Assembly (NCBI GenBank): GCA_017656255.1
Contig: JACDOE010000001.1
Coordinates: 497,205 to 561,204 of the forward strand
Length of the DNA stretch: 64,000 nucleotides
Direction: 5' to 3'
From: Bacillaceae bacterium
GTDB taxonomy: Bacteria; Bacillota; Bacilli; JACDOE01
The translations under genes and the position numbers were made by a program. Within the stretch, counting starts at the first letter, position 1, and the number at the start of each line of letters is the position of its first letter. This document shows, in pieces, positions 24,373 through 42,872 of the stretch. The notes under the pieces were generated by a model that ran no database searches, was not told the DNA's origin, and saw only the letters and a program-made list of their open reading frames with translations.

Positions 24373-24378
24373 TCCCCC

Positions 24379-24455: not shown

Positions 24456-24731
24456 GTGAAGGGAGCAAATGAGGTGGATAAAAAGAAATTCAGACTGGAA
24501 GCGAAATTCGCCGAATATCTGGATAATCAGAAATTGAAGGAAAAAGACCTGAAAAAGAAGGCTTTGAAACATTTATCTCCCCGCTGGGAAATCCGGACGA
24601 TGACCGAACGGGATCCCATTGTGGAAGAGACGCATGAAGTCCGCAAATATGTAAAAGAAGTGGATGATCGTTATGATACATATTTGAAACAGGCAAAATC
24701 TAAACCAGATCGGGACCAGGATGACAAATGA
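24456..24731 (+). CDS. Hypothetical Lys/Glu-rich protein
   Basis: Start ambiguous (ATG 24456 or GTG 24474 after AAGGGAG). No recognisable domain. Confidence 0.4.
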   Translation: MKGANEVDKKKFRLEAKFAEYLDNQKLKEKDLKKKALKHLSPRWEIRTMTERDPIVEETHEVRKYVKEVDDRYDTYLKQAKSKPDRDQDDK

Positions 24732-24825
24732 AGACGTCTGCGGCACCTTATTTTTTGCGTAATCATGGAAATAGAGGGTAAAATATGTTGTAACGAAAAC
24801 ATCGTAATTAAAGGAGTTTTCACCT

Positions 24826-26907
24826 ATGACACATGAGAAAAATGAAGAACAAAAAAGGGCGAATCGGCTGATTGACGAAAAAAGCCCTTACCTGTTGCAA
24901 CATGCCTACAACCCCGTCAACTGGTACCCCTGGGATGAAGAAGCCTTTGAAAAAGCCAAAAAAGAACATAAACCGATCTTTCTGAGTATCGGATATTCCA
25001 CCTGTCACTGGTGCCACGTGATGGAGAGGGAATCCTTTGAAGATGAAGACGTGGCGAAGGTGTTAAACGACGGATTTGTATCGATTAAAGTAGACCGGGA
25101 AGAGAGACCGGATATCGACACCCTTTATATGTCGGTGTGCCAGGCCATGACCGGTCAGGGAGGGTGGCCGCTCACCATCATCATGACTCCGGACAAGAAA
25201 CCGTTTTTTGCCGGCACGTACTTTCCGAAGGAAGATAAATGGGGAAGACCCGGTTTGATTTCAGTCCTCAATCAAGCTCTGGAAAAATGGGAAAATGAAC
25301 ATGACAAAATTCAGCGAATCAGCGATAAAATTACCACCATTCTGGAGCCCCGTCTCTCGGCTTCTTCGAGGGGAGAACTGGATAAATCCAGCCTGAATCA
25401 GGCTTACGAACGTTATCTGCAAACCTTCGACGCCACTTATGGTGGATTCGGGCAGGCGCCTAAATTTCCCACACCTCACAACCTGATGTTTTTATTGCGC
25501 CACTGGAAGTTAACCGGAGAAGAAAAAGCGCTGGCCATGGTGGAAAAAACATTGGACGCCATGTACCGAGGAGGCATTTACGACCATATCGGTTACGGAT
25601 TTGCCCGATATTCCACAGATGAAAAATGGCTGGTGCCCCATTTTGAAAAAATGTTATATGATAATGCCCTGCTTGCTATCACCTATATCGAAGCCTATCA
25701 GGCTACCGGCAAGACTTTTTACGCCAGGGTTGCAGAAGAAATCTTTACCTATATTCTGCGGGATATGACCGACCCGGAAGGGGCGTTTTATTCGGCAGAA
25801 GATGCCGATTCAGAAGGAGTAGAGGGAAAATTCTATGTCTGGACACCGGATGAAGTAAAGCGTATTCTCGGTGAAACGGATGGCGAATTGTTCTGTGACT
25901 ATTACAACATCTCACCCGGCGGTAATTTTGAGGGTAAAAACATTCCCAATCTGATTCAACAGGATCTGGATACGTTTCATAAAAAAGCGGGAATAAACCG
26001 GGAAGAATGGGAAAACAAACTCTCCATACTGAGGCAGAAAATATTTGAACAGCGTGAAAAACGGGTTCATCCCCATAAGGACGATAAAATCTTGACTTCA
26101 TGGAATGGATTAATGATCGCAGCCCTGGCACGGGGAGGAAAAGTACTTGACCGCCCCGAATGGATTGATGCAGCTGCGAGGGCAAAAGATTTTATACTTG
26201 AACATTTGATTCGTGAAGATGGAAGACTATTGGCCCGTTACCGGGATGGAGAGGCTGCTTTTCCCGGCTACATTGACGACTATGCTTTTTTCATCTGGGG
26301 GCTTATCGAACTATATGAAGCCGGTTATCAGATTCGTGATTTACAGAATGCTGCTGAGTTGCAACGCAGGATGATCGATATATTCTGGGATTCAGAAAAT
26401 GGCGGTTTCTTCTTTTATGGCCGAGACAGTGAACAATTGTTTGCAAGACCAAAAGAGATCTATGACGGTGCCACACCATCCGGAAATTCCGTAGCCGCTC
26501 TCAATCTTCTCAAAATGTCCAGATTGACTGGTGATTCTGATTTTGAAAAGACGGCCGAAGAACAGATGAAGGCTTTTGCCGGTGATATCCAGGAACACCC
26601 TCCTGCCCATTCCTATTTTTTGATGGCTCTTCAATTTGCGTTATATCCGACACGAGAGATTGTGATCGCAGGTGAACGAAACCATCAAGATACACGGGAT
26701 ATGATCAGAGCCATTCATAAAATGTTTTTGCCCCAGGCGGTTACACTGCTGAATCCTGCGGGTGAGACGACAGATCTGACCGAGCTGGTTCCGTTTGTCA
26801 AGGACCAGACGCAGCGGGATGGAAAGGCGACAGCCTATGTATGTGAAAACTTTGCCTGTCAGTCTCCGGTCACTGAACTGGAACGTTTAAAAAAACAGTT
26901 AACCTGA
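24826..26907 (+). CDS. Thioredoxin-domain protein YyaL-like (DUF255 plus six-hairpin glycosidase-like/N-acylglucosamine 2-epimerase-like domain)
   Basis: Thioredoxin-like CHWCHVME motif in the first 70 aa, then a ~550-aa alpha/alpha-toroid region. Size and order match the YyaL/SPATA20 family. Confidence 0.75.
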
Positions 26908-31017: not shown

Positions 31018-31629
31018 GTGATCGTTCGTTTTATTTATTTCATTTTCTTGTTGATTATAAGCGGTTGTAGTCTTACCAGTTCTTATGATTTGGAACGGTA
31101 TTCGCTGTCAACGGAAGAACACCAGTTAATTCGTGCGACAGGAACCGAAAGTATTGGAGTTTATGATGTGACGATTCAGGATAAAAATATCAATGCTGTT
31201 TCCTGCCGGATTAAATTTTATCAGGATGGGGATCAAATAGATACCCTGGACTTTAAATTTTTCGACACATCTTTAATATATGATGAAAACGTTAGGTTAA
31301 GTCTGATGCGTCGGGAGATACCGGATACAGATAATCTATTGTATCTGGTTTCTCTCAACTCGGATGGCATTCAGTCTGTTGCCAGACAGGTAACCCGGGA
31401 TATACCGGGAAATCGGGCACATGGAGAAATAAAGTTACGAGAAAAGTTGAATATCATACCGGACCAGCCTCTAATTCTGGCTGTTGAACGTTACTTTCAC
31501 GATCCACCTCAGGTCCATCTGAACAATGAAATGTTTACAGACCCACAGACGTTAGAGCAGATCATAGAAGAGGGCGACGCCGTCATCTACACCTGTACAT
31601 TTAAAAATCAGGAAAGGGGTGGAGACTGA
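31018..31629 (+). CDS. Hypothetical lipoprotein
   Basis: Lipobox LIISGC. Confidence 0.45.
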   Translation: MIVRFIYFIFLLIISGCSLTSSYDLERYSLSTEEHQLIRATGTESIGVYDVTIQDKNINAVSCRIKFYQDGDQIDTLDFKFFDTSLIYDENVRLSLMRREIPDTDNLLYLVSLNSDGIQSVARQVTRDIPGNRAHGEIKLREKLNIIPDQPLILAVERYFHDPPQVHLNNEMFTDPQTLEQIIEEGDAVIYTCTFKNQERGGD

Positions 31630-31631
31630 CG

Positions 31632-31859
31632 ATGCTTTTTTTGTATGCCATGATGTTAGTTATCTCCTTTATTTTTATCTATACCCTGATGAAAACAATG
31701 GAACTTCTGGTAAAAAGCAAAAATCAGGCTACATACATGCAATTCAGAAACGGGACGATTATCAGTTTTCTTTTGCTGGTTACTTTTTTTTCATCTTGTT
31801 CAATAATTAAAAGAAATACATGGGGGTTATTGTCTGCCGGAAATATCATTTTCAGGTGA
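31632..31859 (+). CDS. Small hypothetical membrane protein
   Basis: ATG 3 nt after the upstream stop. Hydrophobic. Confidence 0.35.
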   Translation: MLFLYAMMLVISFIFIYTLMKTMELLVKSKNQATYMQFRNGTIISFLLLVTFFSSCSIIKRNTWGLLSAGNIIFR

Positions 31860-32017
31860 AAGCAAGTCAACCGTCATGGAGGAAGAAGGGAAACATTATG
31901 CAGTTTCCCCATTTTTTATATGAGAGGGATTTATCCGATTATGTCGAATAAAGAATATGGATCACCATAGCATGGCAAAAAACAACCAGACATGAAATGC
32001 GATTTGAGGGGGACGCG

Positions 32018-33646
32018 ATGTTTTATGCCCGTTTGCTGATGTTACTGATATGGCTATCAACGCCCCTCTTAACATCAATGCCGGTTGCAGCATCTGATTC
32101 CGGTGTTTACACCATTGCCTATCTGGAACAGTTTTATCCGTTTCAACAGAAGGGGGAAAAGGGGCAGGCTGAAGGATTTGTGATTGATCTGTTGAACGCG
32201 ATCGCAACAACAGAAAACATCAAATTTCAATATCAACCGATGACGCTTGATGAAGCTGTAAACGCTTTAAATAACGGCGAAATTGACGGAATCGCCGGGT
32301 TAAAATACACCTCTGAAAAAGACCGGTTTTTTGATTTTTCACAGCCCTTTACAACGGTATCACATACCCTGCTCGTGCCGGAAAACAATACGTCGATCCA
32401 GACTCTTCCTGATCTGGGGGGTAAAGTGGTGGCCATCGAGAGAGGAGATGTGGCCTTAGACATTCTGAGAGACGTCAGAAGAGTCGAGGTACTGGTCGCA
32501 AAAAATCAGACAAACGCGTTAAAATATCTCGAATCAGGCCGGGCCGATGCTTTTCTGGGCAACTCCATGTTGATTGAAACCTATCTGGAAAAACGGGGAC
32601 TCACCAATGAGTACCGGCGAACAGACGATCTCCTGCTCCCAAGTGATTATGCTTTTGCCACCACCGAAGGTAACCAGGACTTAATCCGAACCATCAACCG
32701 GGGTTTGATCAAAGTTAAAGCGAATCAGGAATACCAAAAGATCTACAATCAATGGTTCGGCTGGGAGGATAAAAGACTGGCCCAAAAGATGCGACAGGTC
32801 ATCCTCATGCTGGTCCTGGCTCTTATGGCAGGTGTCCTGTATGTGATTTTCTCCATCCGCTGGAACCGGAAGTTAAAAGAAGAAGTGGCTAAACGAACGG
32901 TTGAACTGGAACGTACCAACCGTATGCTGGAACAAAAAATAGAAGAAGAAAAAAACCTGCGCCAGAAACTGATTCACAAAGAAAAAATGCAGGCGCTTGG
33001 ACAACTTGTGGCAAGTATCGCCCATGAACTCCGCAATCCGTTGACCTCGATCAAGGCTTTTGTTGAGTTGATACCGGAAAAATTCGAAAGCCCGCGTTTT
33101 CGCCAGGAAGTAAGCCGATATGTACCGGCGGAAATCAACCGTCTGAACAAATTGCTGACCAATTTGCTCGATTATGCCAAACCGGGGGATCCGCAAAAAC
33201 AAACGTTTGCAGTACGTGAATGGCTGGATTCGGTGTATCCTTTTTTTCAGATACAGTTTGACAAAAAGCATATTCGATTCAGCACTGATATCCCGGAATC
33301 GCTTTATGTTTGGGCCGATTACGGGCAGATGAAACAGGTGCTGGTCAACATTCTGCTGAATGCAATGGACGCCGTGGGACAAAACGGTGACATTCACATG
33401 ACCGCCTGTTCGGAACAGGATAATGTGGTGATTAAGATTCGCGATTCCGGGAAAGGCATCCCGCAGGATAAAATGGCCCTGATTTTTGAGCCCTTTTACA
33501 CCGATAAGACACACGGAACAGGACTCGGACTGTCTTTGTGCCGGCAGTATATGAAAGACAATAACGGCGAGATCCAGATTGAAAGCGTACCGGGAAAAGG
33601 GACGACGGTTGTACTGAGGCTGCCGACAGGAAAAGGGGGAGTATGA
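32018..33646 (+). CDS. Sensor histidine kinase with periplasmic solute-binding (SBP_bac_3-like) domain, TM helix, HisKA and HATPase_c
   Basis: Signal/TM region, then amino-acid-binding-protein-like domain (GIAGLKYTSEKDRFFDFSQPF). A second TM helix follows, then H-box IAHELRNPL and N/G boxes (DSGKGIP, GTGLGLSL). The ATG at 32018 has a GAGGGGGA RBS. The track ATG at 31997 has none. Confidence 0.75.
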   Translation: MFYARLLMLLIWLSTPLLTSMPVAASDSGVYTIAYLEQFYPFQQKGEKGQAEGFVIDLLNAIATTENIKFQYQPMTLDEAVNALNNGEIDGIAGLKYTSEKDRFFDFSQPFTTVSHTLLVPENNTSIQTLPDLGGKVVAIERGDVALDILRDVRRVEVLVAKNQTNALKYLESGRADAFLGNSMLIETYLEKRGLTNEYRRTDDLLLPSDYAFATTEGNQDLIRTINRGLIKVKANQEYQKIYNQWFGWEDKRLAQKMRQVILMLVLALMAGVLYVIFSIRWNRKLKEEVAKRTVELERTNRMLEQKIEEEKNLRQKLIHKEKMQALGQLVASIAHELRNPLTSIKAFVELIPEKFESPRFRQEVSRYVPAEINRLNKLLTNLLDYAKPGDPQKQTFAVREWLDSVYPFFQIQFDKKHIRFSTDIPESLYVWADYGQMKQVLVNILLNAMDAVGQNGDIHMTACSEQDNVVIKIRDSGKGIPQDKMALIFEPFYTDKTHGTGLGLSLCRQYMKDNNGEIQIESVPGKGTTVVLRLPTGKGGV

Positions 33647-35028
33647 TGAATCATCGCCTGCTTATTGTTGATGATGAAGAAGCGATCTGCGCTTCTCTCA
33701 GATATACCTTTGAAGATGACTTTAACGTCTACACCGCCACAGATGGCAAATCGGCGCTGGAATACGCCGAGAAACATTCACCTGACATTGTCCTGCTGGA
33801 CCTGAAAATCGGACAAGAATCCGGTCTAGAATTGCTCGAACCGATTCTCAAACTCTGTCCCCAGTCCAGGGTAATCATGATGACAGCATACGGTGACATT
33901 GAATCCTCCGTACAGGCGATGCGAAAAGGTGCCTACGCCTATATTGAAAAACCGCTTCATATGGAAGAATTGAAACTTTTGATCCAGAAGTGCCTCGATC
34001 ATCAGCAACTGACGGAAAAGGTAAATGAACTGCAGCAGGAGATGGAGGGTAAATACAGCCATCACGGCATTATCGGCCGGAGTAAAGCGATTAAGGATAT
34101 TTATGTCATGATCGATAAAGTAAAGGATATTGACTCAACGGTTCTGGTCAGCGGGGAAAGCGGAACGGGGAAAGAACTGGTGGCCCGGGCCATTCATTAC
34201 AGCGGCAACCGTCGCCAACATCCGTTTGTAGACGTCAATTGTGCCGCAATTCCTTCGGAACTTCTGGAAAGTGAACTGTTTGGCTATGAAAAAGGGGCAT
34301 TTACCGGAGCTCACCAGGACAAGCCCGGGAAATTTGTTCAGGCAGACGGCGGCACCCTGTTTCTGGATGAAGTGGGGGAACTGCCGCTTTCACTTCAGTC
34401 CAAGCTGCTTCGGACCATTCAGGAAAAAGAAGTAACACCACTTGGGTCCACAAAGAAAGTCTCAGTTGATACCCGGATTATTGCAGCGACCAACCGTGAC
34501 TTAAAGGAAGAGGTAAAAAACGGACGTTTCCGTGAAGATCTCTATTTCCGTCTGAATGTGATTCCCATTCACATTCCCTCTCTCAAGGACCGTAAAGAAG
34601 ATATACCACCGCTGGTGGATCATTTTATGCAGCAATACAACCGGTCCATGGGCCGGGACATTCAGGGCATCGAACCGACTGCGATGGAAGTTCTGATGAA
34701 ATACGCCTATCCGGGAAATGTACGTGAATTATCCAATGTGATCGAACGAGCGGTTGCCCTGAGTGAAGGTTTTAATATAAAAGTATCAGATTTGCCCCGG
34801 CAGGTGGTGGAAGCCAGTATCGAAGCGGAATTTTATTCCTCTGAAGATCCGTCACGGATTACCTTCCGGTTTGGAACAAGTTTAAGAGAGGTTGAAAAAA
34901 GGTTTATCCTCTTTACGCTGGATAAATTGGACGGACATCGTAAAAAGACGGCTGAAGTTCTCGGCATCAGTGAAAGAGGCCTCCGGCAAAAGTTAAAAAT
35001 GTACCACGAGGAAGCCAAACAGATATAA
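33643..35028 (+). CDS. Sigma-54-dependent response regulator (NtrC family: REC, AAA+ sigma-54 activator, Fis-type HTH)
   Basis: REC domain (LLIVDDEE...DLKIG). Walker A GESGTGKE and GAFTGA motifs. C-terminal HTH. ATGA overlap with the kinase gene. Confidence 0.85.
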   Translation: MMNHRLLIVDDEEAICASLRYTFEDDFNVYTATDGKSALEYAEKHSPDIVLLDLKIGQESGLELLEPILKLCPQSRVIMMTAYGDIESSVQAMRKGAYAYIEKPLHMEELKLLIQKCLDHQQLTEKVNELQQEMEGKYSHHGIIGRSKAIKDIYVMIDKVKDIDSTVLVSGESGTGKELVARAIHYSGNRRQHPFVDVNCAAIPSELLESELFGYEKGAFTGAHQDKPGKFVQADGGTLFLDEVGELPLSLQSKLLRTIQEKEVTPLGSTKKVSVDTRIIAATNRDLKEEVKNGRFREDLYFRLNVIPIHIPSLKDRKEDIPPLVDHFMQQYNRSMGRDIQGIEPTAMEVLMKYAYPGNVRELSNVIERAVALSEGFNIKVSDLPRQVVEASIEAEFYSSEDPSRITFRFGTSLREVEKRFILFTLDKLDGHRKKTAEVLGISERGLRQKLKMYHEEAKQI

Positions 35029-35152
35029 CGGCATAAAATTCCGTAAGGCGGCAAAAAATGCCGTCATCTTTATCCGTCGGCTGGATGACACGTTGAAAGA
35101 GGAGCATGTGACAATAGAGGCAAATCAACTTATTAGCCGTTTTAATAAATAA

Positions 35153-35168
35153 TGGCACAGTTTTTGCA
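35153..35168 (+). promoter_or_regulatory. Sigma-54 (-24/-12) promoter: TGGCAC-N5-TTGCA
   Basis: aaTGGCACagtttTTGCAtg is a perfect match to consensus. It lies ~80 nt upstream of the first TAXI receptor gene and immediately downstream of the NtrC-type activator gene. Confidence 0.8.
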
Positions 35169-35246
35169 TGTATTTAACTGATGCAGGAACTTGTTAAGCT
35201 CCTCTTTCTTATATCAGAAATTTATTCTATTGAAGGAGGAGACCCG

Positions 35247-36278
35247 GTGTTCTATCTCCTGAAATCACCGAAAAATACCGTCGCCATATTGCTTTTACTG
35301 GTTTATGCAATCGTTTTCAGCGGTTGTCAAGCCAATCAAAACCCATCATCCGATCCTTTTTCAAAACAGGATGCCAGGTTGTTGACCATTGCCACCGGCG
35401 GGACGACCGGGCCCTATTTTGCCATTGGGAACGGTCTCGCAAGATCGCTGGACCGGCATCTGGTGGGGACGATTGCATCGGTTCGGTCAACAGGCGGAGG
35501 GGTTGAAAATATCAGGTTGCTAACCGAAAAGAAAGCTGAAGTCGCTTTTGTCATGGCGGATATTGCCTCTTTTGCCTATGAGGGCAACCAGGAGGTCAAG
35601 GGTCTGAAAAACGGTGAGGAATTGAGAGCGATTACATCCCTGTACCCCAATTTTGTCCATTTGATCACACTCGAAGGACAGCCGATCAACAGTGTGCAGG
35701 ATCTGGTCGGAAAACGAGTGGGTGTAGGCGATGTTGGTTCCGGTACGGAAGTGAATGCCAGAACGATTTTAAAATCTTACGGCATCACTTATGACGACAT
35801 CGAGGAACATTTTCTCTCCTATAAAGAATCCGTGCTGGAATTAAAGCAGGGGAATGTGGATGCCGCTTTTCTCACTTCCGGCCTGCCCAATCCCGCTATT
35901 CAGGATTTGATGCAGACCCACCCGGTCAAATTCATCAACATATCCAGAGAAAATATCGATAAAATCGCAGCTCACTATCCGTATTATTCGTACAACGTGA
36001 TCCCGAAAGGAACCTATAACAATACCGCTGATATTTCAACTGCCGCGATCACGAATCTGTTGCTGACCCGCCGGGACATGCCGGAGCAAATAGTCTACGA
36101 CATGACATCCATCCTGTTTGAAGAACTGGATGAATTGCAGGATGCCCATACAGCAGCCAGAGATATTAATCTGCAAAACAGTCAGGACGGTGTTTCGGTG
36201 CCATTTCATCCGGGAGCGCAAAAGTTTTTTGAAGAACACGGGATTAATGTAAGGTTTCTGCCACACACAAATCATTAA
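35247..36278 (+). CDS. TRAP transporter solute receptor, TAXI family (copy 1, lipoprotein)
   Basis: GTG start with GAAGGAGGAG RBS. Lipobox VFSGC. TAXI signature TGGTTGPYFAIG...HPGAQKFFEE. The track ATG at 35181 would start before the sigma-54 transcription start. Confidence 0.75.
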   Translation: MFYLLKSPKNTVAILLLLVYAIVFSGCQANQNPSSDPFSKQDARLLTIATGGTTGPYFAIGNGLARSLDRHLVGTIASVRSTGGGVENIRLLTEKKAEVAFVMADIASFAYEGNQEVKGLKNGEELRAITSLYPNFVHLITLEGQPINSVQDLVGKRVGVGDVGSGTEVNARTILKSYGITYDDIEEHFLSYKESVLELKQGNVDAAFLTSGLPNPAIQDLMQTHPVKFINISRENIDKIAAHYPYYSYNVIPKGTYNNTADISTAAITNLLLTRRDMPEQIVYDMTSILFEELDELQDAHTAARDINLQNSQDGVSVPFHPGAQKFFEEHGINVRFLPHTNH

Positions 36279-36292
36279 GGGGGTTTTTAAGA

Positions 36293-37324
36293 GTGAAAAA
36301 GTTTTTTACTTTGATGCTGGTATTTGTGTTAACGCTTTCTCTGGCTGCCTGCGGAGGCGGACAGGAAGCAGCAGAACAGAACAATGGAACAGAAGGTGAA
36401 ACTGGAGGAGAACAGGCTGAAAGTAATGCGGCTGAACCGGCCAAGCTGGTGTTTGGTACAGGTGGAACTTCTGGAACTTACTATCCGATTGGTGGCGCAT
36501 TGAAAACCGTTTTTGAAGAAAGTGATTTAATTGATAGTGTAACGGTTGAATCAACAGGTGCATCCGTTAAAAACATCCAGAATATTCGTGACGGACTGAA
36601 CCAGATCGCCATTATCATGAGTGATGTTGGTTACGATGCTGTCAATGGTGTTGGAAAATTTGAAGGAGAAAAGGTGGATATCCAGGCTGTAGCTGGTCTG
36701 TACCCGAATGTGGTGCAGGTTGTCGCAACGGCAGATAGCGGTATTAAAACCGTTGCCGACCTCAAAGGGAAGCGGGTTGGTGTCGGAAAAGTAGGTTCCG
36801 GTGTGGAACAGAGTGCCAAGAAAGTTCTGGCAGCTGCCGGCCTGACCTATGATGATCTGGATAAAGTCACACATACCGGATATGCCGACAGTGTTAAAGC
36901 TATGAAAGATGGTAACCTGGATGCCGCATTCTTCACGTCTGGTGTCCCGAACAGCAATATCACCGATTTACAGCAGACGATGGACATTCAATTCGTCGAA
37001 ATTGATGGTGACGTTGCTTCCAAGTTGCTTGATTCTTATCCGTTCTATCAGACTTACACCATCCCGGCAGGAGATGAAGCGAAGTACAACCTGGAGGAAG
37101 AGGTTAATACCGTGGCCATTAAGAACATGTTGATTGTCAGCCCTGACCTCAATGAAGATGTGGTCTATGAATTGACTAAACTGTTCTATGAGTATCTCGG
37201 AACGGAAAATGTAGCGGTCGGAGCGCTAAAACAGTTTGACCGTGATGATATGGGTAATAATCTGGTTGCTCCGCTTCATCCAGGAGCCCAAAAATTCTAT
37301 GAAGAAAATGGTTTGTTGAAATAA
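36293..37324 (+). CDS. TRAP transporter solute receptor, TAXI family (copy 2, lipoprotein)
   Basis: Lipobox LAACGG. TGGTSGTYYPIG...HPGAQKFYEE. Paralogous to copy 1. Confidence 0.8.
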   Translation: MKKFFTLMLVFVLTLSLAACGGGQEAAEQNNGTEGETGGEQAESNAAEPAKLVFGTGGTSGTYYPIGGALKTVFEESDLIDSVTVESTGASVKNIQNIRDGLNQIAIIMSDVGYDAVNGVGKFEGEKVDIQAVAGLYPNVVQVVATADSGIKTVADLKGKRVGVGKVGSGVEQSAKKVLAAAGLTYDDLDKVTHTGYADSVKAMKDGNLDAAFFTSGVPNSNITDLQQTMDIQFVEIDGDVASKLLDSYPFYQTYTIPAGDEAKYNLEEEVNTVAIKNMLIVSPDLNEDVVYELTKLFYEYLGTENVAVGALKQFDRDDMGNNLVAPLHPGAQKFYEENGLLK

Positions 37325-37330
37325 GCCAAT

Positions 37331-37366
37331 CGCGGGGCATCCCTCGGGATGTCCCGTCATTTTTAA
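37331..37366 (+). terminator. Intra-operon hairpin/terminator between receptor and permease genes
   Basis: gcggggcatccc-tc-gggatgtcccg then tcattttt. Confidence 0.5.
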
Positions 37367-37370
37367 AAAG

Positions 37371-37868
37371 ATGCTCATGAACAAGAAAATCTTTATCCTG
37401 CTAATCACACTCATAACCATCACGGCTTCATTTTACCCGATTCAGGTATTTAGCGTTACAACCGATAACGAACCGGTTTATATTTTTCCGGCCGGGGAGG
37501 GGTTTTCCTTTTCCGTTCGCTGGATTCACTCCGTCGAGGAAGAAGAATGGGAAGAATTTTTTGTGGTTAAAGACGGATCGATCATACTGGATGCCACACG
37601 CTTCAAAACATTCGGAGCAGGCGTTCCGCACAATGCCGGTAAAGACGCCTTTCTCAAAGACGGCTGGTTATATATGATTGATATTGATCGTTTGATCGGC
37701 GGTGAGCTCTATGTGCGAACAGGGCCTGAAACCAATCACCGTTTGTTTATTAACGGAAAGGCAAATCCGTTGTCTAAACCCGGTGAGAATGTCGCTTATC
37801 TCATGAAAGTGGACAGGCAACCGTTCCTCATCTATTTTAAAAGCTGGTTGATTTCGAAACGGAGGTAG
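37371..37868 (+). CDS. DUF1850-domain protein (TAXI-TRAP-associated)
   Basis: Conserved position between the TAXI receptor and fused permease. Single N-terminal TM helix. Confidence 0.6.
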   Translation: MLMNKKIFILLITLITITASFYPIQVFSVTTDNEPVYIFPAGEGFSFSVRWIHSVEEEEWEEFFVVKDGSIILDATRFKTFGAGVPHNAGKDAFLKDGWLYMIDIDRLIGGELYVRTGPETNHRLFINGKANPLSKPGENVAYLMKVDRQPFLIYFKSWLISKRR

Positions 37869-37878
37869 GGGGGAGTCT

Positions 37879-40035
37879 ATGAGCCAGAAAGATTCGATTC
37901 TAGAAAAATATGACCGGGAATCGGTCACCCGTACCAATATCATAAAACCGATTGCGATTATCCTGACCCTTTTTGCTGTAGGATTATCGCTATTTCATCT
38001 TTATACATCATTTGCCGGACCGCTGGTAGATATTAAACAGCGGAGCATTCATCTGTTTATCCTGCTGATGATCGCCTATTTGCTGTATCCGATAAGTAAA
38101 AGGGCGAGAAGGGACCGTGTTCCAGTTTACGATATCATCATGGCCGTGCTATCTCTGTTTGCCGGGATTTATATGCTGGCAACAGCGGAAAGGATTATTA
38201 ACGACGGGGGACAGATTAACACGCTGGATTTTTATATCGGCATCCTGATCATTCTGCTGGTGATTGATGCGACAAGGCGTGTCACCGGATGGGGACTTCC
38301 GATACTTGCCATCATTTTTATCATTTACGGGTTATATACGAAATTGACGGTCTATCCGGAATTAAAAATGCCGATCGTCATGAATATCTCAAAATCGATT
38401 GTCTCCCATCTCGTCTTTATCACCGAAGGGATTCTGGGAACGGCAATCGGGGTATCAGCCAGTTATATCATTCTGTTTATCCTGTTCGGCGCGTTTCTGG
38501 AGAAGTCGGGCATGGGAAAACTGTTTAATGATCTCGCCCTGGCCATCGCTGGAGGTGCAAAGGGTGGTCCGGCCAAGGTGGCCGTTATTGCCAGCGGATT
38601 TCTCGGATCTATCAACGGATCAGCGATAGCCAACGTGGTGACCACAGGTGCCTTTACCATTCCTTTGATGAAAAAGATCGGTTATCATAAAAATTTCGCA
38701 GGAGCAGTGGAGTCCGCATCCAGTGTGGGCGGGCAAATTTTGCCGCCGATTATGGGGGCTGCCGCATTTATTATGGCGGAAAACCTGTCTATTCCCTACA
38801 CAACTATCATTCTGGCAGGTATTATTCCCGCGCTCTTGTTCTATCTGGGGGTTCTTTTACAGGTGCATTTTCGGGCATCGAGGCAAAACCTGGAGGGGAT
38901 TCCCAGAAGCGAACTTCCTTCTGTAAAAAAGGTTTTGCTGGAAAGAGGACATCTGCTAATCCCGATGATTATTCTGTTATACCTTTTGTTTACGGGTAAA
39001 ACGCCTTTTTATGCGGCTTTCTGGTCAATCGTGGCCACGATTCTGATTTCGGGTACGCGCAAACTACTTTCCATTATGTTGCCGGTGCTGTTATTCCTTA
39101 TTTTCCAGGATCAGATCACCGCATTCATAACCGGTGAAACGGTACCGAATCCCGATCAGAATCTGATGCTGCTCATGGCCATTATTCTAATTCCGTTGAT
39201 TATTAATTTTGTACGAACCTGGTTTCAGATTCCATCCGATCAGATGGGTGTCAAGGACTTTAAAGAAGCCCTTGAAAAAGGGGCGAAAACGTCTATTTCT
39301 GTGGCGATGGCCTGTGCTGCAGTCGGGATTATCGTCGGGATTGCCACGTTAACAGGTATTGCACTGGATGTAGCCAACAGCATTGTGGCCCTTGGTGACC
39401 ATTTTTCATCACCTTTGATCCAGTTGTTGATTACGCTATTCTTTACGATGATCGCTTCGATTTTACTGGGAATGGGACTTCCAAGTATTCCGACCTATAT
39501 TATTACGAGTACGATGGCGGCTCCGATTCTGCTGCAAACGCCGTTATTTAAGGAACTGGCAGGAACCACAGAGAACGCCGTCTTCATCGCTCATATGTTT
39601 GTGTTTTACTTCGGTATTTTCGCTAATATTACACCACCCGTGGCCCTGGCGGCTTTCGCCGGAGCAGGGATAAGCGGGGGAGATCCGACCAAAACCGGTC
39701 TTCAGGCTATGAAACTGGCTGTTGCCGGATTTATCGTACCCTTTATGTTTGTATTTGCACCGGAAATGTTGATTATTGATGCCGGTACAGGCGAAATCGT
39801 GCTAATCGCTTTAACATCGATTCTGGGCGTGACCATGCTGTCCATCGCGGTGGAAGGCTATTTCCTGAAATCGGTGCCTGACTGGATGCGTCTTCTGGCC
39901 GGCGTCAGTGCGATCCTCTTGATTTATCCGGGTCTGGTAACCGATGTCATCGGGCTGGTTGTGTTTGCCCTTCTTCTGTTTACGAACTTTAGAAATCGTA
40001 CACCGGTGGATCCGAATTACCAGCAAAATGTATAA
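37879..40035 (+). CDS. TRAP transporter fused permease (4TM/12TM, TAXI-type)
   Basis: 718-aa polytopic membrane protein, the typical fused DctQM-like permease of TAXI systems. Confidence 0.8.
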   Translation: MSQKDSILEKYDRESVTRTNIIKPIAIILTLFAVGLSLFHLYTSFAGPLVDIKQRSIHLFILLMIAYLLYPISKRARRDRVPVYDIIMAVLSLFAGIYMLATAERIINDGGQINTLDFYIGILIILLVIDATRRVTGWGLPILAIIFIIYGLYTKLTVYPELKMPIVMNISKSIVSHLVFITEGILGTAIGVSASYIILFILFGAFLEKSGMGKLFNDLALAIAGGAKGGPAKVAVIASGFLGSINGSAIANVVTTGAFTIPLMKKIGYHKNFAGAVESASSVGGQILPPIMGAAAFIMAENLSIPYTTIILAGIIPALLFYLGVLLQVHFRASRQNLEGIPRSELPSVKKVLLERGHLLIPMIILLYLLFTGKTPFYAAFWSIVATILISGTRKLLSIMLPVLLFLIFQDQITAFITGETVPNPDQNLMLLMAIILIPLIINFVRTWFQIPSDQMGVKDFKEALEKGAKTSISVAMACAAVGIIVGIATLTGIALDVANSIVALGDHFSSPLIQLLITLFFTMIASILLGMGLPSIPTYIITSTMAAPILLQTPLFKELAGTTENAVFIAHMFVFYFGIFANITPPVALAAFAGAGISGGDPTKTGLQAMKLAVAGFIVPFMFVFAPEMLIIDAGTGEIVLIALTSILGVTMLSIAVEGYFLKSVPDWMRLLAGVSAILLIYPGLVTDVIGLVVFALLLFTNFRNRTPVDPNYQQNV

Positions 40036-40044
40036 AGGTGTGAG

Positions 40045-40078
40045 TGACCGCAAAAAATTTTGCGGTCCTTTTTTTTGT
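40045..40078 (+). terminator. Intrinsic terminator after the TRAP permease
   Basis: gaccgcaaaa-aa-ttttgcggtc then cttttttttt. Confidence 0.8.
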
Positions 40079-40171
40079 TAAACACGAAACGATCCAATCC
40101 CACAGAATATAAAAATCAAAATCAGACAATAATTCAATAGTAGTATCCCTTTAAAAGGTGGTGTAAACAGG

Positions 40172-41554
40172 GTGAACTTTTGGTCAGGTTTAGGCATCGG
40201 TGTCTTCGTAACGATGTTAACAGGATTTATATTCATTCGTCCCATTATAAAAGGAGTCTTAGCAAATTTTATAAAGCGGATCATGAAAGAACGCTACGAT
40301 AAAAATATCTGGGAGATGATTACTGCGTCAAAACGTTACACCCCAATTTATAACATCGAAAATAGTTTAAGGGCTGAAACAGGAAAAGTCATTAACAGGC
40401 CCTTCGGTAGTCCAAGAAAGTTTGTAAATTTTGACGGACTCATTTTTTCACCTGCTCAACTTGCGGTGATGGCAACCCCGCAGGGGACTTCGATTGATAC
40501 CAAAATTCAAATCGGTCCCCGTGCTAGCAGGCCGTTAAAACTTGATATGCCTATTTTATTGGGAGGGATGGGATATGGAGTAGCCGTCAGTGAAAAGGTA
40601 AGAATTGCGATGGCTAAAGCAACGGCTGCAGTTGGCACGGCAACCAATGCAGGGGAAGGGGGGTTTTTGCCGGAAGATCGTAAATATGCACGCCATTTGA
40701 TTCTTCAATTTGCCAAAGCAGACTGGTCACAAAAAGAGGAGAATTTGAAACAGGCTGATGCAATAGAAATTTATATCGGTCAGGGTTCACATGCTGCAGC
40801 TTCAGCAAAAATATACCCTGAAAATTTACAGGGACGAGCACGAGAAATCATGGATCTTGATCCGGAGGAAGTGGCGATTCTACCGTCCCGCCATAAAGAG
40901 ATGAATCAAAAAGAAGATTTAAAGCAACTTGTCAACTATTTACGAAACATAACCGGAGGAGTGCCGATTGGCATTAAGCTGAGCCCAGGACATCTGATAG
41001 AAAAAGATTTAGAGGCATGTATTAAAGCAAAGGTGGATTTTATATCCATTGATGGAGGACAGGCTGGAACAAAAGGCTCTCCTCCAATCCTGGAAGATGA
41101 TTTCGGGCTCCCGACTATTTATGCATTATCACGTGCTATCCATTACCTGGAAAAAAGAAATGTGAAAGATCAAATCAGCCTGCTGGTGGGAGGTGGGTTT
41201 TTCACTCCGGGAGATTGTCTAAAAGCACTAGCCATGGGAGCTGATGCGGTGTACATGGGTACAGCCCCGTTATGGGCGATGACTCATACGCAAGTGGTTA
41301 AATCTGTTCCTTTTGAACCGCCAACACAACTCACGTTTTATGCCGGTACCCAGACCCATCAATTTAATGAAGAAGAAGCGGCTTACTATCTCAAAAATTT
41401 TTTTCTTTCATTTGTAGAAGAGATGAAGGTTGCGGTTGAAGCTCTGGGTAAAACATCCATTCGAATGGTGAATAGAGAAGACCTGGTGGCCCTTGATGAG
41501 CTAACCAGCCAGATAACAGGTATTCCACTAGCTTATAAAAAAGCCAAAAGCTAA
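40172..41554 (+). CDS. FMN-binding glutamate synthase family protein (GltS FMN domain-like, YerD-type)
   Basis: N-terminal TM helix, then a GltB-like FMN/Fe-S TIM-barrel region (GGMGYGVAVSEK...IDGGQAGTKGSP). GTG start with AAAGGTGGTG RBS. Confidence 0.7.
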   Translation: MNFWSGLGIGVFVTMLTGFIFIRPIIKGVLANFIKRIMKERYDKNIWEMITASKRYTPIYNIENSLRAETGKVINRPFGSPRKFVNFDGLIFSPAQLAVMATPQGTSIDTKIQIGPRASRPLKLDMPILLGGMGYGVAVSEKVRIAMAKATAAVGTATNAGEGGFLPEDRKYARHLILQFAKADWSQKEENLKQADAIEIYIGQGSHAAASAKIYPENLQGRAREIMDLDPEEVAILPSRHKEMNQKEDLKQLVNYLRNITGGVPIGIKLSPGHLIEKDLEACIKAKVDFISIDGGQAGTKGSPPILEDDFGLPTIYALSRAIHYLEKRNVKDQISLLVGGGFFTPGDCLKALAMGADAVYMGTAPLWAMTHTQVVKSVPFEPPTQLTFYAGTQTHQFNEEEAAYYLKNFFLSFVEEMKVAVEALGKTSIRMVNREDLVALDELTSQITGIPLAYKKAKS

Positions 41555-41578
41555 TGTAACTATGGAGGGCTTTCTGTT

Positions 41579-42337
41579 ATGAATTATCTGAGTGAGACAC
41601 AACATCGGCCTTATGCGCCGCCTTCCCATCCCTGGATTATGAGGCAGACGTGGAGAAACTTCATTTTCGCTCACTGGCCGGTTTCGCCCGCATCGTTGCG
41701 ACCACTGGTTCCTTCTTGTTTGGATATTGATATGTTCAACGGACATGCCTGGGTCGGCATTTACACATTTTGTACAAAAGCTCTTTACCTGAGAGGCATT
41801 CCTTTTTCGATCTTTTCTCCATTTTACGGAATAAATTTGAGAACGTATGTTCGTTATCAGAACAAACCCGGTGTTTATTTTATTCAACTTTATTCAACTC
41901 ATCGTACCGCCCTCCGAATTGCTCGTGCCTGGTACCATTTAAATTATCATCCGGCACACATTAGTTATAATGAGAAGGGGGGAACCAGGATATATCAAGG
42001 GGCATTACAACCATCTGAGAGAAAGAAAAAAACAGTTTATTCCATTCAATTTAATGCGAATCAAGGCAATATTTATTATCCACAAAGAGGTACCCTAGAT
42101 TATTTTCTTACGGAACGATACCGGTTGTATAGTAAGGATTCAAAAGGACAGCTTTATTGTGGTGAAATTCACCATCCGGCCTGGCCTTTGCAAAAAGTGA
42201 ATGACGTTATCATTAACCATTCGCTGTTGACCTCTTCCAATTTGAAGGTAATGAATGACAACCCTGTTTTTCATTATTCCAGGGGATTCGATGTTTTGAT
42301 TTGGAATATAAAAAAATTAGACATGACATCCATTTGA
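41579..42337 (+). CDS. DUF2071-family protein (YqjF-like)
   Basis: FAHWPV motif and ~250-aa length. Confidence 0.5.
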   Translation: MNYLSETQHRPYAPPSHPWIMRQTWRNFIFAHWPVSPASLRPLVPSCLDIDMFNGHAWVGIYTFCTKALYLRGIPFSIFSPFYGINLRTYVRYQNKPGVYFIQLYSTHRTALRIARAWYHLNYHPAHISYNEKGGTRIYQGALQPSERKKKTVYSIQFNANQGNIYYPQRGTLDYFLTERYRLYSKDSKGQLYCGEIHHPAWPLQKVNDVIINHSLLTSSNLKVMNDNPVFHYSRGFDVLIWNIKKLDMTSI

Positions 42338-42402
42338 ACTCTATCAGACGCTTCAGGAATAAAAAAGACAGCTCTAGCATACAGGCTTTTTCGCCTATCA
42401 CA

Positions 42403-42872
42403 ATGAAAGAGTTGGAACAAATCATCTTTCGAGCTCTGCAAAGAAGTTTCTCCCAGGTCATTTCCCGGATCCTGACGGAATGGGATGAAAAGATTGCTGA
42501 AGGACGGAACAAGCAAGGTTTTATCTCAAAGACAAACGAACGTTAAGGTTCCAGTCGGTCTTTGGCGAAGTAGAACTCAAGAGGAATTATTATCACGATC
42601 GGCAGACCGGAAAATACGTCTATCTTCTGGATCAGTATCTCGCGTTCGATGGAGCAAAAGGTATGAGCCCCATGGTGGAGGATTGGGGGATCGAGTTAGC
42701 GGTTAAGGCAGGATCATTTCGACTGGCGCAGGAGGCTTTGACAAAACTGTTAGGTTACCAGGTGGTCGATCATCTTGAGATCAAAACTCAGCGTGGAAAA
42801 CTCAAGCAAACCCTGGAAATAGTAGAAGACAAAAAGCAAAGGCAGAAGGAAAAGCCACAAAATATTTTGTAG
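42403..42872 (+). pseudogene. Frameshifted/truncated N-terminal remnant of an ISLre2-family (UPF0236) transposase
   Basis: Three overlapping ORFs in different frames together read like the N-terminal region of a UPF0236/ISLre2-family transposase (...YHDRQTGKYVYLLDQYLAFDGAKGMSPMVEDWGIELAVKAGSFRLAQEALTKLLGYQV...). No intact DDE domain. Confidence 0.5.

What the first reader, a model, noticed from the sequence alone, without database searches (positions are those of the whole stretch)
31997..40035. Solute-binding-domain histidine kinase plus NtrC-type sigma-54 response regulator driving a TAXI-TRAP transporter with two tandem receptors
A perfect sigma-54 promoter (TGGCAC-N5-TTGCA at 35153-35168) sits between the regulator gene and the first TAXI receptor gene. 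REC-containing NtrC-type activators are uncommon in Bacillaceae, where sigma-54 activators are mostly non-REC types. The kinase senses through an amino-acid-binding-protein-like periplasmic domain. The transporter has two paralogous lipoprotein receptors, a DUF1850 protein and a fused permease. A hairpin/terminator after the second receptor gene (37331-37366) suggests receptor over-expression relative to the permease. A glutamate-synthase-like FMN protein follows. The substrate (likely an amino acid or dicarboxylate) is unknown.
Basis: partly seen in the sequence, partly recalled or inferred. Interest (0 to 1): 0.55.

Follow-up and report, generated by a model that had tools for sequence, protein, structure and literature searches.

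The report
Sigma-54 two-component switch driving TAXI transporter
A Bacillaceae genome carries a self-contained six-gene unit in which a membrane sensor kinase and its partner activator switch on, through the alternative sigma-54 promoter type, an uptake system with two different binding proteins; the unit is real and conserved, no described example was found, and it most likely imports a dicarboxylic or 2-oxo acid rather than an amino acid.

Summary
Window 32018-40035 (+) encodes a histidine kinase with an SBP_bac_3 sensor, a REC-AAA+(GAFTGA)-HTH_8 response regulator, two TAXI lipoproteins (34% identical), DUF1850 and a fused TRAP permease. The exact TGGCAC-N5-TTGCA lies at 35153-35168.

The same six genes, between different flanks, occur in eight other loci. 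All keep a -24/-12 element at the same place. Ten more distant cassettes (33-68% GC) keep it too.

The stem-loop after TAXI-2 is conserved in 7 of 8 loci; its T-tract in only 3.

The two receptors are not recent duplicates. TAXI-1 belongs to the lineage that travels with this kinase/regulator pair. TAXI-2, with DUF1850 and the permease, matches a Pseudalkalibacillus system controlled by a DcuS/DcuR-type pair.

Both receptors lack the Gln and Glu that bind glutamate's amino group in VcGluP. A Neobacillus paralogue of the switch drives a KgtP-like permease. I therefore favour a C4/C5 dicarboxylate or 2-oxo acid.

The glutamate-synthase-like gene is not part of the unit. sigL in this genome could not be checked. 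This is a new variant of a known kind, of moderate interest.

The parts
32018..33646 (+). Sensor histidine kinase. It has an N-terminal signal/TM segment, an extracytoplasmic SBP_bac_3 (Venus-flytrap) domain, a second TM segment, and HisKA plus HATPase_c with no HAMP or PAS. The mechanical ORF begins at 31997.
   Evidence: Pfam and NCBIfam, translation, RBS and start. The kinase core resembles AtoS/ZraS but scores below their cutoffs.
33643..35028 (+). NtrC-type response regulator and sigma-54 enhancer-binding protein: REC, AAA+ with GAFTGA, and a Fis-type HTH. Its start overlaps the kinase stop by 4 nt.
   Evidence: The best solved relatives are entries named 'Transcriptional regulator (NtrC family)', 4L4U and 1NY5 (E 2e-103).
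35029..35043 (.). Dyad 1 of the candidate upstream activator sequence, CGGCATAAAATTCCG. It starts right after the regulator's stop codon, about 142 bp upstream of the predicted transcription start.
   Evidence: The same motif recurs in orthologous and distant cassettes.
35049..35063 (.). Dyad 2 of the candidate upstream activator sequence, CGGCAAAAAATGCCG (perfect). It lies 20 bp centre-to-centre from dyad 1. It also forms a weak terminator-like hairpin at 35047-35065.
35153..35168 (+). Sigma-54 promoter TGGCAC-N5-TTGCA. The transcription start is predicted near 35177-35180.
   Evidence: Conserved in 8 of 8 orthologous loci and 10 of 10 distant cassettes.
35199..35241 (+). Leader element. The anti-SD box CTCCTCTTTC (35199-35208) is predicted to pair with the TAXI-1 Shine-Dalgarno GAAGGAGGAG (35232-35241).
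   Evidence: MFE folds of six orthologous leaders all pair these boxes. The CCTCTTT box is visible in six of the eight leaders aligned. No Rfam family matches.
35247..36278 (+). TAXI-1 lipoprotein receptor (GTG start, lipobox VFSGC). Pocket signature G-P-Y-F-G-M-Y-N-G-T-L-T-G.
36293..37324 (+). TAXI-2 lipoprotein receptor (lipobox SLAAC). Pocket signature G-T-Y-Y-S-M-Y-N-G-V-F-T-G. It is an orthologue of the sole receptor of a Pseudalkalibacillus TAXI-TRAP.
37332..37366 (+). Intercistronic stem-loop (GCGGGGCATCCC-TCGG-GGGATGTCCCGT) followed by CATTTTTAA. It is read as a partial terminator and/or a 3' stabiliser of the receptor mRNA.
   Evidence: The GGCATCC/GGATGCC stem is conserved in 7 of 8 loci.
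37371..37868 (+). [quoted passage not shown] It is an accessory component of TAXI-TRAP loci.
   Evidence: AF2 model with pLDDT 94; no PDB fold neighbour; present in 70 of 80 TAXI loci.
37879..40035 (+). Fused (Q-M) TRAP permease of 718 aa.
   Evidence: TIGR02123, 694 bits. It is 66% identical to the Pseudalkalibacillus permease.
40046..40076 (+). Intrinsic terminator that ends the operon: GACCGCAAAA-AATT-TTTTGCGGTC followed by a T-rich tail.

Best explanation
This is a self-contained, substrate-inducible uptake cassette. I propose it works as follows; the evidence field separates what is shown from what is inferred.

1. An extracellular ligand closes the Venus-flytrap (SBP_bac_3) domain of the membrane kinase, and the kinase autophosphorylates.
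2. The phosphate passes to the REC domain of the NtrC-type regulator.
3. The regulator assembles on two tandem CGGCA-N5-TGCCG dyads (35029-35063), about 120-140 bp upstream of the start site. Using ATP, it opens the sigma-54 holoenzyme complex at TGGCAC-N5-TTGCA (35153-35168).
4. The resulting mRNA encodes TAXI-1, TAXI-2, DUF1850 and the fused permease.
5. A stem-loop after TAXI-2 ends or protects part of the transcripts, so the two lipoprotein receptors outnumber the membrane parts.
6. The TAXI-1 ribosome-binding site is additionally masked by a leader hairpin.
7. Both receptors deliver substrate to one permease.

The substrate is most likely a C4/C5 dicarboxylate or 2-oxo acid, such as 2-oxoglutarate, glutarate or 2-hydroxyglutarate. 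It is not glutamate or glutamine.
For: Shown:
- All domains are present, with intact catalytic motifs.
- The six-gene order recurs between unrelated flanks in eight further loci.
- The -24/-12 element is conserved in all of them, with 0-2 mismatches. It is also present in nine metagenomic kinase-regulator-TAXI-DUF1850-permease cassettes and two kinase-regulator-TAXI + MFS loci, across 33-68% GC.
- Dyads: two of the nine matches with at most 1 mismatch in the 64 kb lie 20 bp apart in this 125-bp interval. Seven perfect dyads occur in five of the ten distant upstream regions.
- In Neobacillus soli the dyads sit in front of the promoter but after the TAXI gene, not after the regulator gene. They track the promoter.
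- The stem-loop after TAXI-2 is conserved in 7 of 8 loci, with one compensatory variant.
- No convincing sigma-70 promoter lies before DUF1850 or the permease.

Inferred, on the substrate:
- VcGluP positions Q93 and E125 are Met and Asn in both receptors in all eight loci compared (the window and seven orthologous loci). Q93A costs 990-fold in glutamate affinity (PMC11574862).
- In the kinase sensor, the alpha-amino-binding Asp of GlnBP (D157) is Asn in all orthologues.
- The Neobacillus paralogue of the switch (regulator 52% identical, same dyads) drives a PRK10406/KgtP-like permease (513 bits). That family is linked to alpha-ketoglutarate uptake in PMC4482717.
- The TAXI-2 orthologue (67%) in Pseudalkalibacillus hwajinpoensis sits behind a DcuS/DcuR-type pair, 4-7 kb from glaH and lhgO.
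- According to PMC12344293, a Proteus TAXI system is specific for 2-oxoglutarate and 2-hydroxyglutarate.
Against: - sigL/rpoN was not found in the window and could not be looked up in the rest of the genome.
- No experiment exists for any member of this cassette.
- In several low-GC loci the two dyads are mutually complementary and followed by a T run. They could therefore be the terminator of the regulator operon.
- The T-tract after the TAXI-2 hairpin is present in only 3 of 7 loci that keep the stem.
- The sensor's Gly-Asn at GlnBP positions 156-157 is also found in a Tissierellaceae homologue that sits next to a branched-chain-type ABC system. It is a family trait, not a ligand marker.
- E125A barely affects glutamate binding in VcGluP.
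- The gene-context clues for C5 dicarboxylates come from paralogous systems in other genomes. The genes flanking this cassette differ from genome to genome.
Confidence: 0.7

Rival explanations
1. Division of labour between the receptors. TAXI-2, DUF1850 and the permease form the transporter. TAXI-1 is mainly a signalling partner of the kinase, a ligand-loaded co-sensor comparable to DctB with DctS in B. subtilis. It may be unable to dock on this permease.
For: - In an NJ tree, TAXI-1 falls in the clade holding all TAXIs found beside this kinase/regulator type. TAXI-2 forms a separate clade with the Pseudalkalibacillus receptor.
- In Neobacillus soli and in L053 a TAXI-1-lineage protein is co-transcribed with the kinase and regulator. 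The sigma-54 target there is an MFS permease, and no TRAP permease lies within the flanks.
- TAXI-1 evolves at the rate of the sensor (56% against 52% mean identity) and tracks it (r 0.93). TAXI-2 resembles the permease (75% against 72%).
- The permease is 66% identical to the Pseudalkalibacillus one but about 45-54% identical to those of single-receptor sigma-54 cassettes.
Against: - In nine sigma-54 cassettes and dozens of other loci, a TAXI-1-lineage protein is the only receptor next to DUF1850 and the permease. The lineage is therefore a competent transport receptor.
- Here TAXI-1 lies downstream of the inducible promoter, not with the regulators.
- The kinase already has its own ligand-binding domain.
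- Mirror-tree correlations from eight taxa are weak evidence.
Confidence: 0.15
2. It is a glutamate/glutamine or other polar amino-acid uptake system. This is suggested by the 'amino-acid-binding' sensor domain and by the best solved TAXI relatives.
For: - The best PDB matches of both receptors are the Thermus Glu/Gln-binding protein 1US4/1US5 (E about 1e-55) and VcGluP 8S4J.
- The sensor matches GlnH-type proteins.
- Y45 of VcGluP is conserved.
Against: - Q93 is Met and E125 is Asn in both receptors in every locus. Q93A lowers glutamate affinity 990-fold.
- The sensor lacks the alpha-amino Asp, and the Thr and Arg of the alpha-carboxylate clamp are changed or variable.
- Related switches drive KgtP-like permeases.
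Confidence: 0.1
3. The hairpin after TAXI-2 is a full terminator. DUF1850 and the permease would then be expressed from their own promoter, so the sigma-54 switch controls only the receptors.
For: - In the window the stem (11 pairs) is followed by five T.
- Weak sigma-70-like matches exist inside DUF1850.
Against: - The T-tract is missing in L008, L011, L012 and L013.
- In L013 the TAXI-2 and DUF1850 genes abut.
- The gap is only 46 nt, and the sigma-70 matches are 9 of 12 and fewer than in shuffles.
- Single-receptor cassettes run TAXI-DUF1850-permease without such a break.
Confidence: 0.08
4. The -24/-12 match is fortuitous and the operon is read by the housekeeping sigma factor.
For: One exact match in 64 kb arises in 11% of shuffles. 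sigL is unverified.
Against: - The element is conserved at the same place in 8 of 8 orthologues while the surrounding leader is only 46% identical, and in 10 of 10 distant cassettes.
- It lies directly downstream of a GAFTGA activator gene.
- No sigma-70-like site was found in the interval.
Confidence: 0.02

Closest known systems
DctB/DctD (Rhizobium, Pseudomonas aeruginosa) and MifS/MifR-RpoN controlling PA5530 (PMC4482717)
   Same: A membrane kinase, an NtrC-type REC-AAA+-HTH regulator and a sigma-54 promoter switch on an organic-acid transporter in response to its substrate. The MifSR target is a PRK10406/KgtP-type permease, like the target of the Neobacillus paralogue of this switch.
   Different: The sensor here is a single SBP_bac_3 Venus-flytrap domain, not the DctB-type periplasmic domain (the latter from my own knowledge). 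The host is a Bacillaceae member. The target is a TAXI-type TRAP with two receptors plus DUF1850. The enhancer motif is CGGCA-N5-TGCCG. No sequence orthology was shown.
VcGluP-VcGluQM (Vibrio cholerae) and TtGluBP (Thermus), the structurally characterised TAXI receptors
   Same: Same TAXI fold family (E 1e-39 to 1e-55), the conserved Tyr45, and a fused Q-M permease.
   Different: The key glutamate determinant Gln93 is Met and Glu125 is Asn in both receptors here. Both are lipoproteins. There are two receptors per permease, and a DUF1850 gene is present.
TAXI-TRAP of Proteus mirabilis (2-oxoglutarate/2-hydroxyglutarate, proton-driven; cited in PMC11574862 and PMC12344293)
   Same: A non-amino-acid TAXI system with a membrane-anchored receptor. 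It is the closest functional precedent for the substrate class proposed here.
   Different: I could not retrieve its sequence or paper. Neither the pocket nor the regulation could be compared.
Pseudalkalibacillus hwajinpoensis TAXI-DUF1850-permease locus (L017)
   Same: TAXI-2 is 67% identical with a near-identical pocket, the permease 66% and DUF1850 48%.
   Different: It has a single receptor. It is controlled by a DcuS/MalK-type kinase and a DcuR-like regulator with a divergent DctP-type binding protein, not by sigma-54.
Venus-flytrap sensor kinases BvgS and EvgS, and the sensor protein of PDB 3H7M
   Same: An SBP_bac_3-type extracytoplasmic domain fused to a histidine kinase. These proteins appear among the PDB matches of the sensor.
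   Different: Those are hybrid or multi-domain kinases with other partners. Here one flytrap domain joins directly, through a TM helix, to HisKA and pairs with a sigma-54 activator.
AtoS/AtoC (E. coli)
   Same: These are the best NCBIfam hits for the kinase core (223 bits) and the regulator (487 bits).
   Different: Both scores are far below the equivalog cutoffs (646 and 714). The sensor domain and target genes are different.

Membership tests
NtrC-type sigma-54 enhancer-binding response regulator | REC domain with acidic pocket, phospho-acceptor Asp and conserved Thr/Lys | tested here: met
   PF00072, 89 bits. DD at 10-11, D at 'VLLDLK', T in 'MMTAYG' and K in 'IEKP'. Aligns over its full length with the NtrC-family entry 4L4U.
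NtrC-type sigma-54 enhancer-binding response regulator | AAA+ domain with Walker A, Walker B and the GAFTGA sigma-54 contact loop | tested here: met
   PF00158, 247 bits. GESGTGKE, GAFTGA and LFLDEVGE are present.
NtrC-type sigma-54 enhancer-binding response regulator | C-terminal Fis-type HTH and a cognate upstream activator site | tested here: inconclusive
   HTH_8 is present. Tandem CGGCA-N5-TGCCG dyads are conserved upstream of the promoter. Binding is not shown, and some copies also form terminator hairpins.
Sigma-54-dependent promoter | GG at -24 and GC at -12 with the TGGCAC-N5-TTGCW spacing, in an intergenic region upstream of the regulated gene, conserved in orthologues | tested here: met
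   Exact match at 35153-35168. 0-2 mismatches in 8 of 8 orthologues and 10 of 10 distant cassettes.
Sigma-54-dependent promoter | rpoN/sigL encoded in the same genome | not testable with these tools
   No RpoN box in the window or the fetched loci.
TAXI-type TRAP transporter | TAXI-family solute-binding protein next to a fused Q-M permease | tested here: met
   TIGR02122, 341 and 336 bits (cutoff 84). TIGR02123, 694 bits (cutoff 321). The adjacency is conserved.
Glutamate-specific TAXI receptors (VcGluP/TtGluBP type) | Tyr45 and Gln93 as key binding determinants, with Glu125 contacting the amino group | tested here: not met
   Tyr45 is kept. Gln93 is Met and Glu125 is Asn in TAXI-1 and TAXI-2 of all eight loci. 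Residue roles are taken from PMC11574862.
Polar amino-acid-binding SBP_bac_3 proteins (GlnH/HisJ type pocket) | Thr and Arg clamping the alpha-carboxylate, and Asp binding the alpha-ammonium (GlnBP T70, R75, D157) | tested here: not met
   The domain itself matches (PF00497, 104 bits). However T70 is Lys, R75 is Lys/Arg/Leu and D157 is Asn in all orthologues. The GlnBP sequence and residue roles come from memory, and the alignment is at about 25% identity.
AtoS/AtoC two-component system | Score above the NCBIfam equivalog cutoffs | tested here: not met
   223 against 646 bits for the kinase, and 487 against 714 bits for the regulator.
Intrinsic (factor-independent) terminator after TAXI-2 | G+C-rich stem-loop immediately followed by a U-tract, conserved | tested here: inconclusive
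   The stem is conserved in 7 of 8 loci. The T-tract is present only in the window, L005 and L010.

The most novel reading that the evidence does not exclude
The cassette is a composite of two modules: a sensing module (flytrap kinase, sigma-54 regulator and a TAXI-1-lineage binding protein) and a transport module (TAXI-2, DUF1850 and the permease). In this reading TAXI-1 acts chiefly as a ligand-presenting co-sensor for the kinase. TAXI proteins would then have a signalling role beyond transport, as the orphan TAXI co-transcribed with the kinase and regulator in Neobacillus (whose target is a KgtP-like MFS) would also suggest.
Probability: 0.15. Interest if true: 0.6.

Novelty: new variant of a known kind. 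Interest (0 to 1): 0.4.

Why it matters
[quoted passage not shown] This locus and its relatives give four testable things.

1. A regulatory unit found in loci from 33% to 68% GC: a flytrap kinase, an NtrC-type regulator, a defined candidate enhancer (tandem CGGCA-N5-TGCCG) and a sigma-54 promoter.
2. A TAXI subfamily marked by Met and Asn where glutamate binders have Gln and Glu. This points to non-amino-acid ligands.
3. An arrangement of two receptors from different lineages on one permease, not seen in 80 other TAXI loci.
4. DUF1850 as a near-constant fourth gene of these systems, with a confident predicted fold and no paper on it in the library searched.

It also adds a REC-type sigma-54 activator to the Bacillaceae, where the well-studied activators are of other types. 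It does not overturn anything: two-component sigma-54 control of organic-acid uptake is well established in Proteobacteria.

Tried and rejected
- The genome-collection scan with the kinase returned only four distant kinase-core matches and no orthologue.
- The exact-sequence look-up of the regulator with its ORF start failed, because the public gene call starts one codon later.
- The second near-consensus -24/-12 site at 13385 lies inside the AI-2E transporter coding sequence and is a chance match.
- There is no other GAFTGA activator and no RpoN box in the window.
- Rfam gave no hit at E up to 1 over 31500-42500, so the leader and the hairpin belong to no described RNA family.
- DUF1850 has no PDB sequence match and no fold match (best E 0.018, TM 0.26). 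No paper in the library mentions it.
- The Proteus TAXI paper is not held, and further literature searches found no TAXI regulation study.
- A link to the downstream glutamate-synthase-like and DUF2071 genes was rejected. A terminator separates them from the operon and they are not conserved.
- There is no sign of a mobile element: no flanking repeats and no composition break.
- A cre box is absent from the window's leader, although it is present in relatives.
- I ran no further search on SigL. Only the best 120 hits are listed, so the copy from this genome would almost certainly not have been visible.

Full report
**What is there**

Window 31997-40035 (+) holds six co-oriented genes. Their domains are as follows.
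- The kinase has SBP_bac_3, HisKA and HATPase_c.
- The regulator has REC, the sigma-54 interaction AAA+ domain, its lid, and HTH_8.
- The two TAXI binding proteins score 341 and 336 bits on TIGR02122 (cutoff 84).
- The fifth gene encodes a DUF1850 protein.
- The sixth encodes a fused TRAP permease (TIGR02123, 694 bits).

The regulator carries ESGTGKE and GAFTGA. It aligns over its full length with the NtrC-family entry 4L4U (E 2e-103). The acidic pocket, phospho-acceptor Asp, Thr and Lys of a working receiver are all present.

The kinase translation shows a signal/TM segment, the flytrap domain, a second TM segment, and then the H-box directly, with no HAMP or PAS.

Two starts need correcting. 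TAXI-1 begins at GTG 35247 behind AAGGAGGAG, which gives a lipobox (VFSGC) and agrees with the public gene call. The kinase probably begins at ATG 32018. Both TAXI proteins are lipoproteins and are only 34% identical.

**The promoter**

TGGCACagtttTTGCA lies at 35153-35168, 79 nt upstream of the TAXI-1 start. It is the only exact match in the window, against 0.11 expected.

Kinase homologues at 51-64% identity led to eight further loci with the same six-gene order: L005, L006/L007, L008/L009, L010, L011, L012 and L013. The flanking genes differ between them, apart from the closely related L005 and L010. In every one the regulator-TAXI spacer contains TGGCAY-N5-TTGCW with 0-2 mismatches. The rest of the spacer averages 46% column identity. 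The cassette is thus a self-contained unit, and the promoter is under selection.

**The enhancer**

Right after the regulator's stop codon lie CGGCATAAAATTCCG (35029-35043) and CGGCAAAAAATGCCG (35049-35063), 20 bp apart. These are roughly 142 and 122 bp upstream of the predicted start. Only nine sites with at most 1 mismatch exist in the 64 kb.

All eight orthologous spacers carry one to three such dyads, allowing up to 2 mismatches and in three loci an 8-nt spacer, 48-155 bp upstream of -24.

The motif reaches much further.
- A scan of metagenome contigs with a TAXI-1 alignment gave 80 loci.
- Nine of them have flytrap kinase, sigma-54 regulator, TAXI, DUF1850 and permease. One has kinase, regulator, TAXI and an MFS permease.
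- All ten have a -24/-12 element with at most 2 mismatches. Eight have dyads, and five of those carry perfect copies in tandem 18-23 bp apart.
- These loci span 45-68% GC, and the close orthologues span 33-50%.
- In Neobacillus soli (kinase 37% identical, regulator 52%) the dyads CGGCAAAAAATTCCG and CGGAATTTTTTGCCG and a TGGCAT-N5-TTGCA precede an MFS gene. They follow the TAXI gene rather than the regulator gene.

There is a caveat. In several low-GC loci the two dyads are complementary to each other and followed by a T run, so they would also form a terminator for the upstream operon. The window's second dyad is a weak terminator-like hairpin. The high-GC loci keep the same half-site sequence without any T run. 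That argues for a protein-binding site, possibly doubling as a terminator.

**The transcript**

- *Leader.* A CCTCTTT box (window 35199-35208) pairs with the TAXI-1 Shine-Dalgarno sequence in the minimum-energy folds of all six leaders tested. No Rfam family matches.
- *After TAXI-2.* A stem-loop lies at 37332-37357 (11 pairs). Its GGCATCC/GGATGCC core recurs in 7 of 8 loci, once with a compensatory change. A T-tract follows it only in the window, L005 and L010.
- *Downstream genes.* DUF1850 follows 46 nt after TAXI-2, without a convincing promoter of its own.
- *End of the operon.* A strong terminator closes the operon at 40046-40067.

I read the internal stem-loop as a partial terminator or 3' stabiliser that raises receptor output relative to the permease.

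The glutamate-synthase-like gene (40172-41554) and its DUF2071 neighbour lie beyond the terminator. They are absent downstream of the cassette elsewhere, so they are not part of the system.

**Two receptors from two lineages**

Among orthologues TAXI-2 is 70-80% identical and TAXI-1 is 50-59%. None of the 80 metagenomic TAXI loci has two TAXI genes. The usual unit is TAXI-DUF1850-permease, and a DUF1850 gene was detected in 70 of the 80.

A neighbour-joining tree separates the two receptors. TAXI-1 falls inside the clade that contains every TAXI found beside this kinase/regulator type, including the Neobacillus orphan (41% identical). TAXI-2 forms a separate clade with the single receptor of a Pseudalkalibacillus hwajinpoensis system.

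In that Pseudalkalibacillus system TAXI-2 is 67% identical, the permease 66% and DUF1850 48%. By contrast, the permeases of single-receptor sigma-54 cassettes are about 45-54% identical.

The window's cassette therefore looks composite. The sensing unit with its own receptor lineage is joined to a receptor-DUF1850-permease unit of another lineage.

Evolutionary rates fit this loosely. TAXI-1 resembles the sensor domain and TAXI-2 resembles the permease.

Since TAXI-1-lineage proteins are the sole receptor in many loci, the default reading is two transport receptors with different pockets (5 of 13 pocket positions differ). A mainly signalling role for TAXI-1 is the more novel alternative.

**Substrate**

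The best solved relatives bind glutamate or glutamine (1US4/1US5; VcGluP 8S4J). VcGluP residue numbers map onto 8S4J with an offset of 28. With that mapping, Tyr45 is kept, but Gln93 is Met and Glu125 is Asn in both receptors of all eight loci. Gln93Ala lowers glutamate affinity 990-fold, while Glu125Ala has little effect.

The Met/Asn signature is the majority state in this TAXI subfamily.

In the kinase sensor, the positions equivalent to GlnBP Thr70, Arg75 and Asp157 are Lys, variable (Lys, Arg or Leu) and Asn. The reference sequence and residue roles come from memory. The Gly-Asn pair at positions 156-157 is a family trait shared with a homologue that sits next to a branched-chain-type ABC system.

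Context from relatives points the same way.
- The Neobacillus switch drives a PRK10406-like permease (513 bits, cutoff 550). This is the family of the alpha-ketoglutarate permease controlled by MifS/MifR and RpoN in P. aeruginosa.
- The Pseudalkalibacillus TAXI-2 orthologue sits behind a DcuS/MalK-type kinase and a DcuR-like regulator. It lies 4-7 kb from glutarate dioxygenase GlaH and L-2-hydroxyglutarate oxidase, both of which score above their equivalog cutoffs.

I therefore favour a C4/C5 dicarboxylate or 2-oxo acid. I put about 0.7-0.75 on a non-amino organic acid and about 0.4 on the C5 group specifically.

**DUF1850**

With a 52-sequence alignment, AlphaFold gives a confident model (pLDDT 94). 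[quoted passage not shown] Nothing in the PDB resembles it, and no paper in the library names it. Its near-constant presence between the TAXI and permease genes suggests a fourth component or an assembly factor. I cannot say more.

**What is not settled**

- sigL in this genome could not be checked. The evidence for it is indirect: an intact GAFTGA activator and a promoter conserved across eighteen loci.
- No ligand, transcription start or protein-DNA contact has been measured for any member.
- An invariant TGCA(G) at about +5 to +12 in the eight close orthologues is unexplained.

**Comparison and verdict**

The logic matches DctB/DctD and MifS/MifR: a two-component system plus sigma-54 switching on an organic-acid transporter.

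It differs in four ways: the sensor type, the host (REC-type activators are about 10% of activators in Clostridiales; PMC6615313), the enhancer motif, and the target (a TAXI-TRAP with two receptors of different lineages plus DUF1850).

It fails the membership tests for glutamate-type TAXI receptors, for canonical amino-acid-binding pockets, and for AtoS/AtoC.

It is a new variant of a known kind. The interest is moderate.

Noticed in passing
window 35199-35241; also L005, L008, L010, L011, L013 leaders: A conserved CCTCTTT box in the 5' leader is predicted to pair with the Shine-Dalgarno sequence of TAXI-1 in all six leaders folded. The loops vary from 4 to more than 40 nt. This may be a translational mask or an mRNA stabiliser. 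No Rfam family matches.
   Followed up: partly
L008 13245, L011 13213, L013 4033, L034 4008, L038 9958, L040 5066, L053 11230: Perfect catabolite-responsive elements (TGWAANCGNTNWCA) lie between the sigma-54 promoter and the TAXI (or MFS) start codon in seven related loci. The window's own leader has none, and the whole 64 kb has no perfect match. Many relatives therefore appear to be under CcpA-type catabolite repression.
   Followed up: partly
window 37371-37868; 70 of 80 loci L018-L097: DUF1850 is an almost constant gene between TAXI and permease genes. Its AlphaFold model is confident (pLDDT 94) but has no structural neighbour in the PDB. No paper in the searched library mentions the family.
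   Followed up: partly
L014 8001-13538 (Neobacillus soli) and L053: A flytrap kinase, a sigma-54 regulator and a TAXI binding protein form one operon. The same dyads and a sigma-54 promoter then drive a KgtP-like MFS permease, with no TRAP permease nearby. The TAXI protein there is an orphan, so it may be a co-sensor or a partner of a non-TRAP transporter.
   Followed up: partly
L017 965-11674 (Pseudalkalibacillus hwajinpoensis): The orthologue of TAXI-2 with DUF1850 and the permease lies behind a DcuS/MalK-type kinase, a DcuR-like regulator and a divergent DctP-type binding protein. Glutarate dioxygenase (glaH) and L-2-hydroxyglutarate oxidase genes lie 4-7 kb upstream.
   Followed up: partly
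window 35182-35186 and alignment A1: An invariant TGCA(G) lies 17-23 nt downstream of the -12 element in all eight close orthologues, with variable spacing. It is absent from the distant cassettes. Its function is unknown.
   Followed up: no
L015 7740-8010 (Tissierellaceae contig): A more distant flytrap kinase and sigma-54 regulator pair sits divergently from a branched-chain-type ABC operon. A TGGCAT-N5-TTGCA on the opposite strand faces that operon, so this kinase/regulator family serves several transporter classes.
   Followed up: no
window 40172-42337: A stand-alone glutamate-synthase-domain FMN protein (460 aa) is followed by a DUF2071 (acetoacetate-decarboxylase-like) protein. They lie behind the operon terminator and are not conserved next to the cassette elsewhere.
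   Followed up: partly
window 22227-26907: A COX2/COX1 oxidase gene pair and a DsbH-like thioredoxin-domain gene lie upstream (in the Logan copy of this locus, L016, a small gene with a weak CoxIIa hit precedes the pair). They are syntenic with L005 and partly with L010, which marks those genomes as the closest relatives of the window's organism.
   Followed up: no
window 13385-13400 and 25793-25807: A one-mismatch sigma-54-like site lies inside the AI-2E transporter coding sequence, and a perfect CGGCA-N5-TGCCG dyad lies inside the DsbH-like gene. Both are most likely chance matches.
   Followed up: yes
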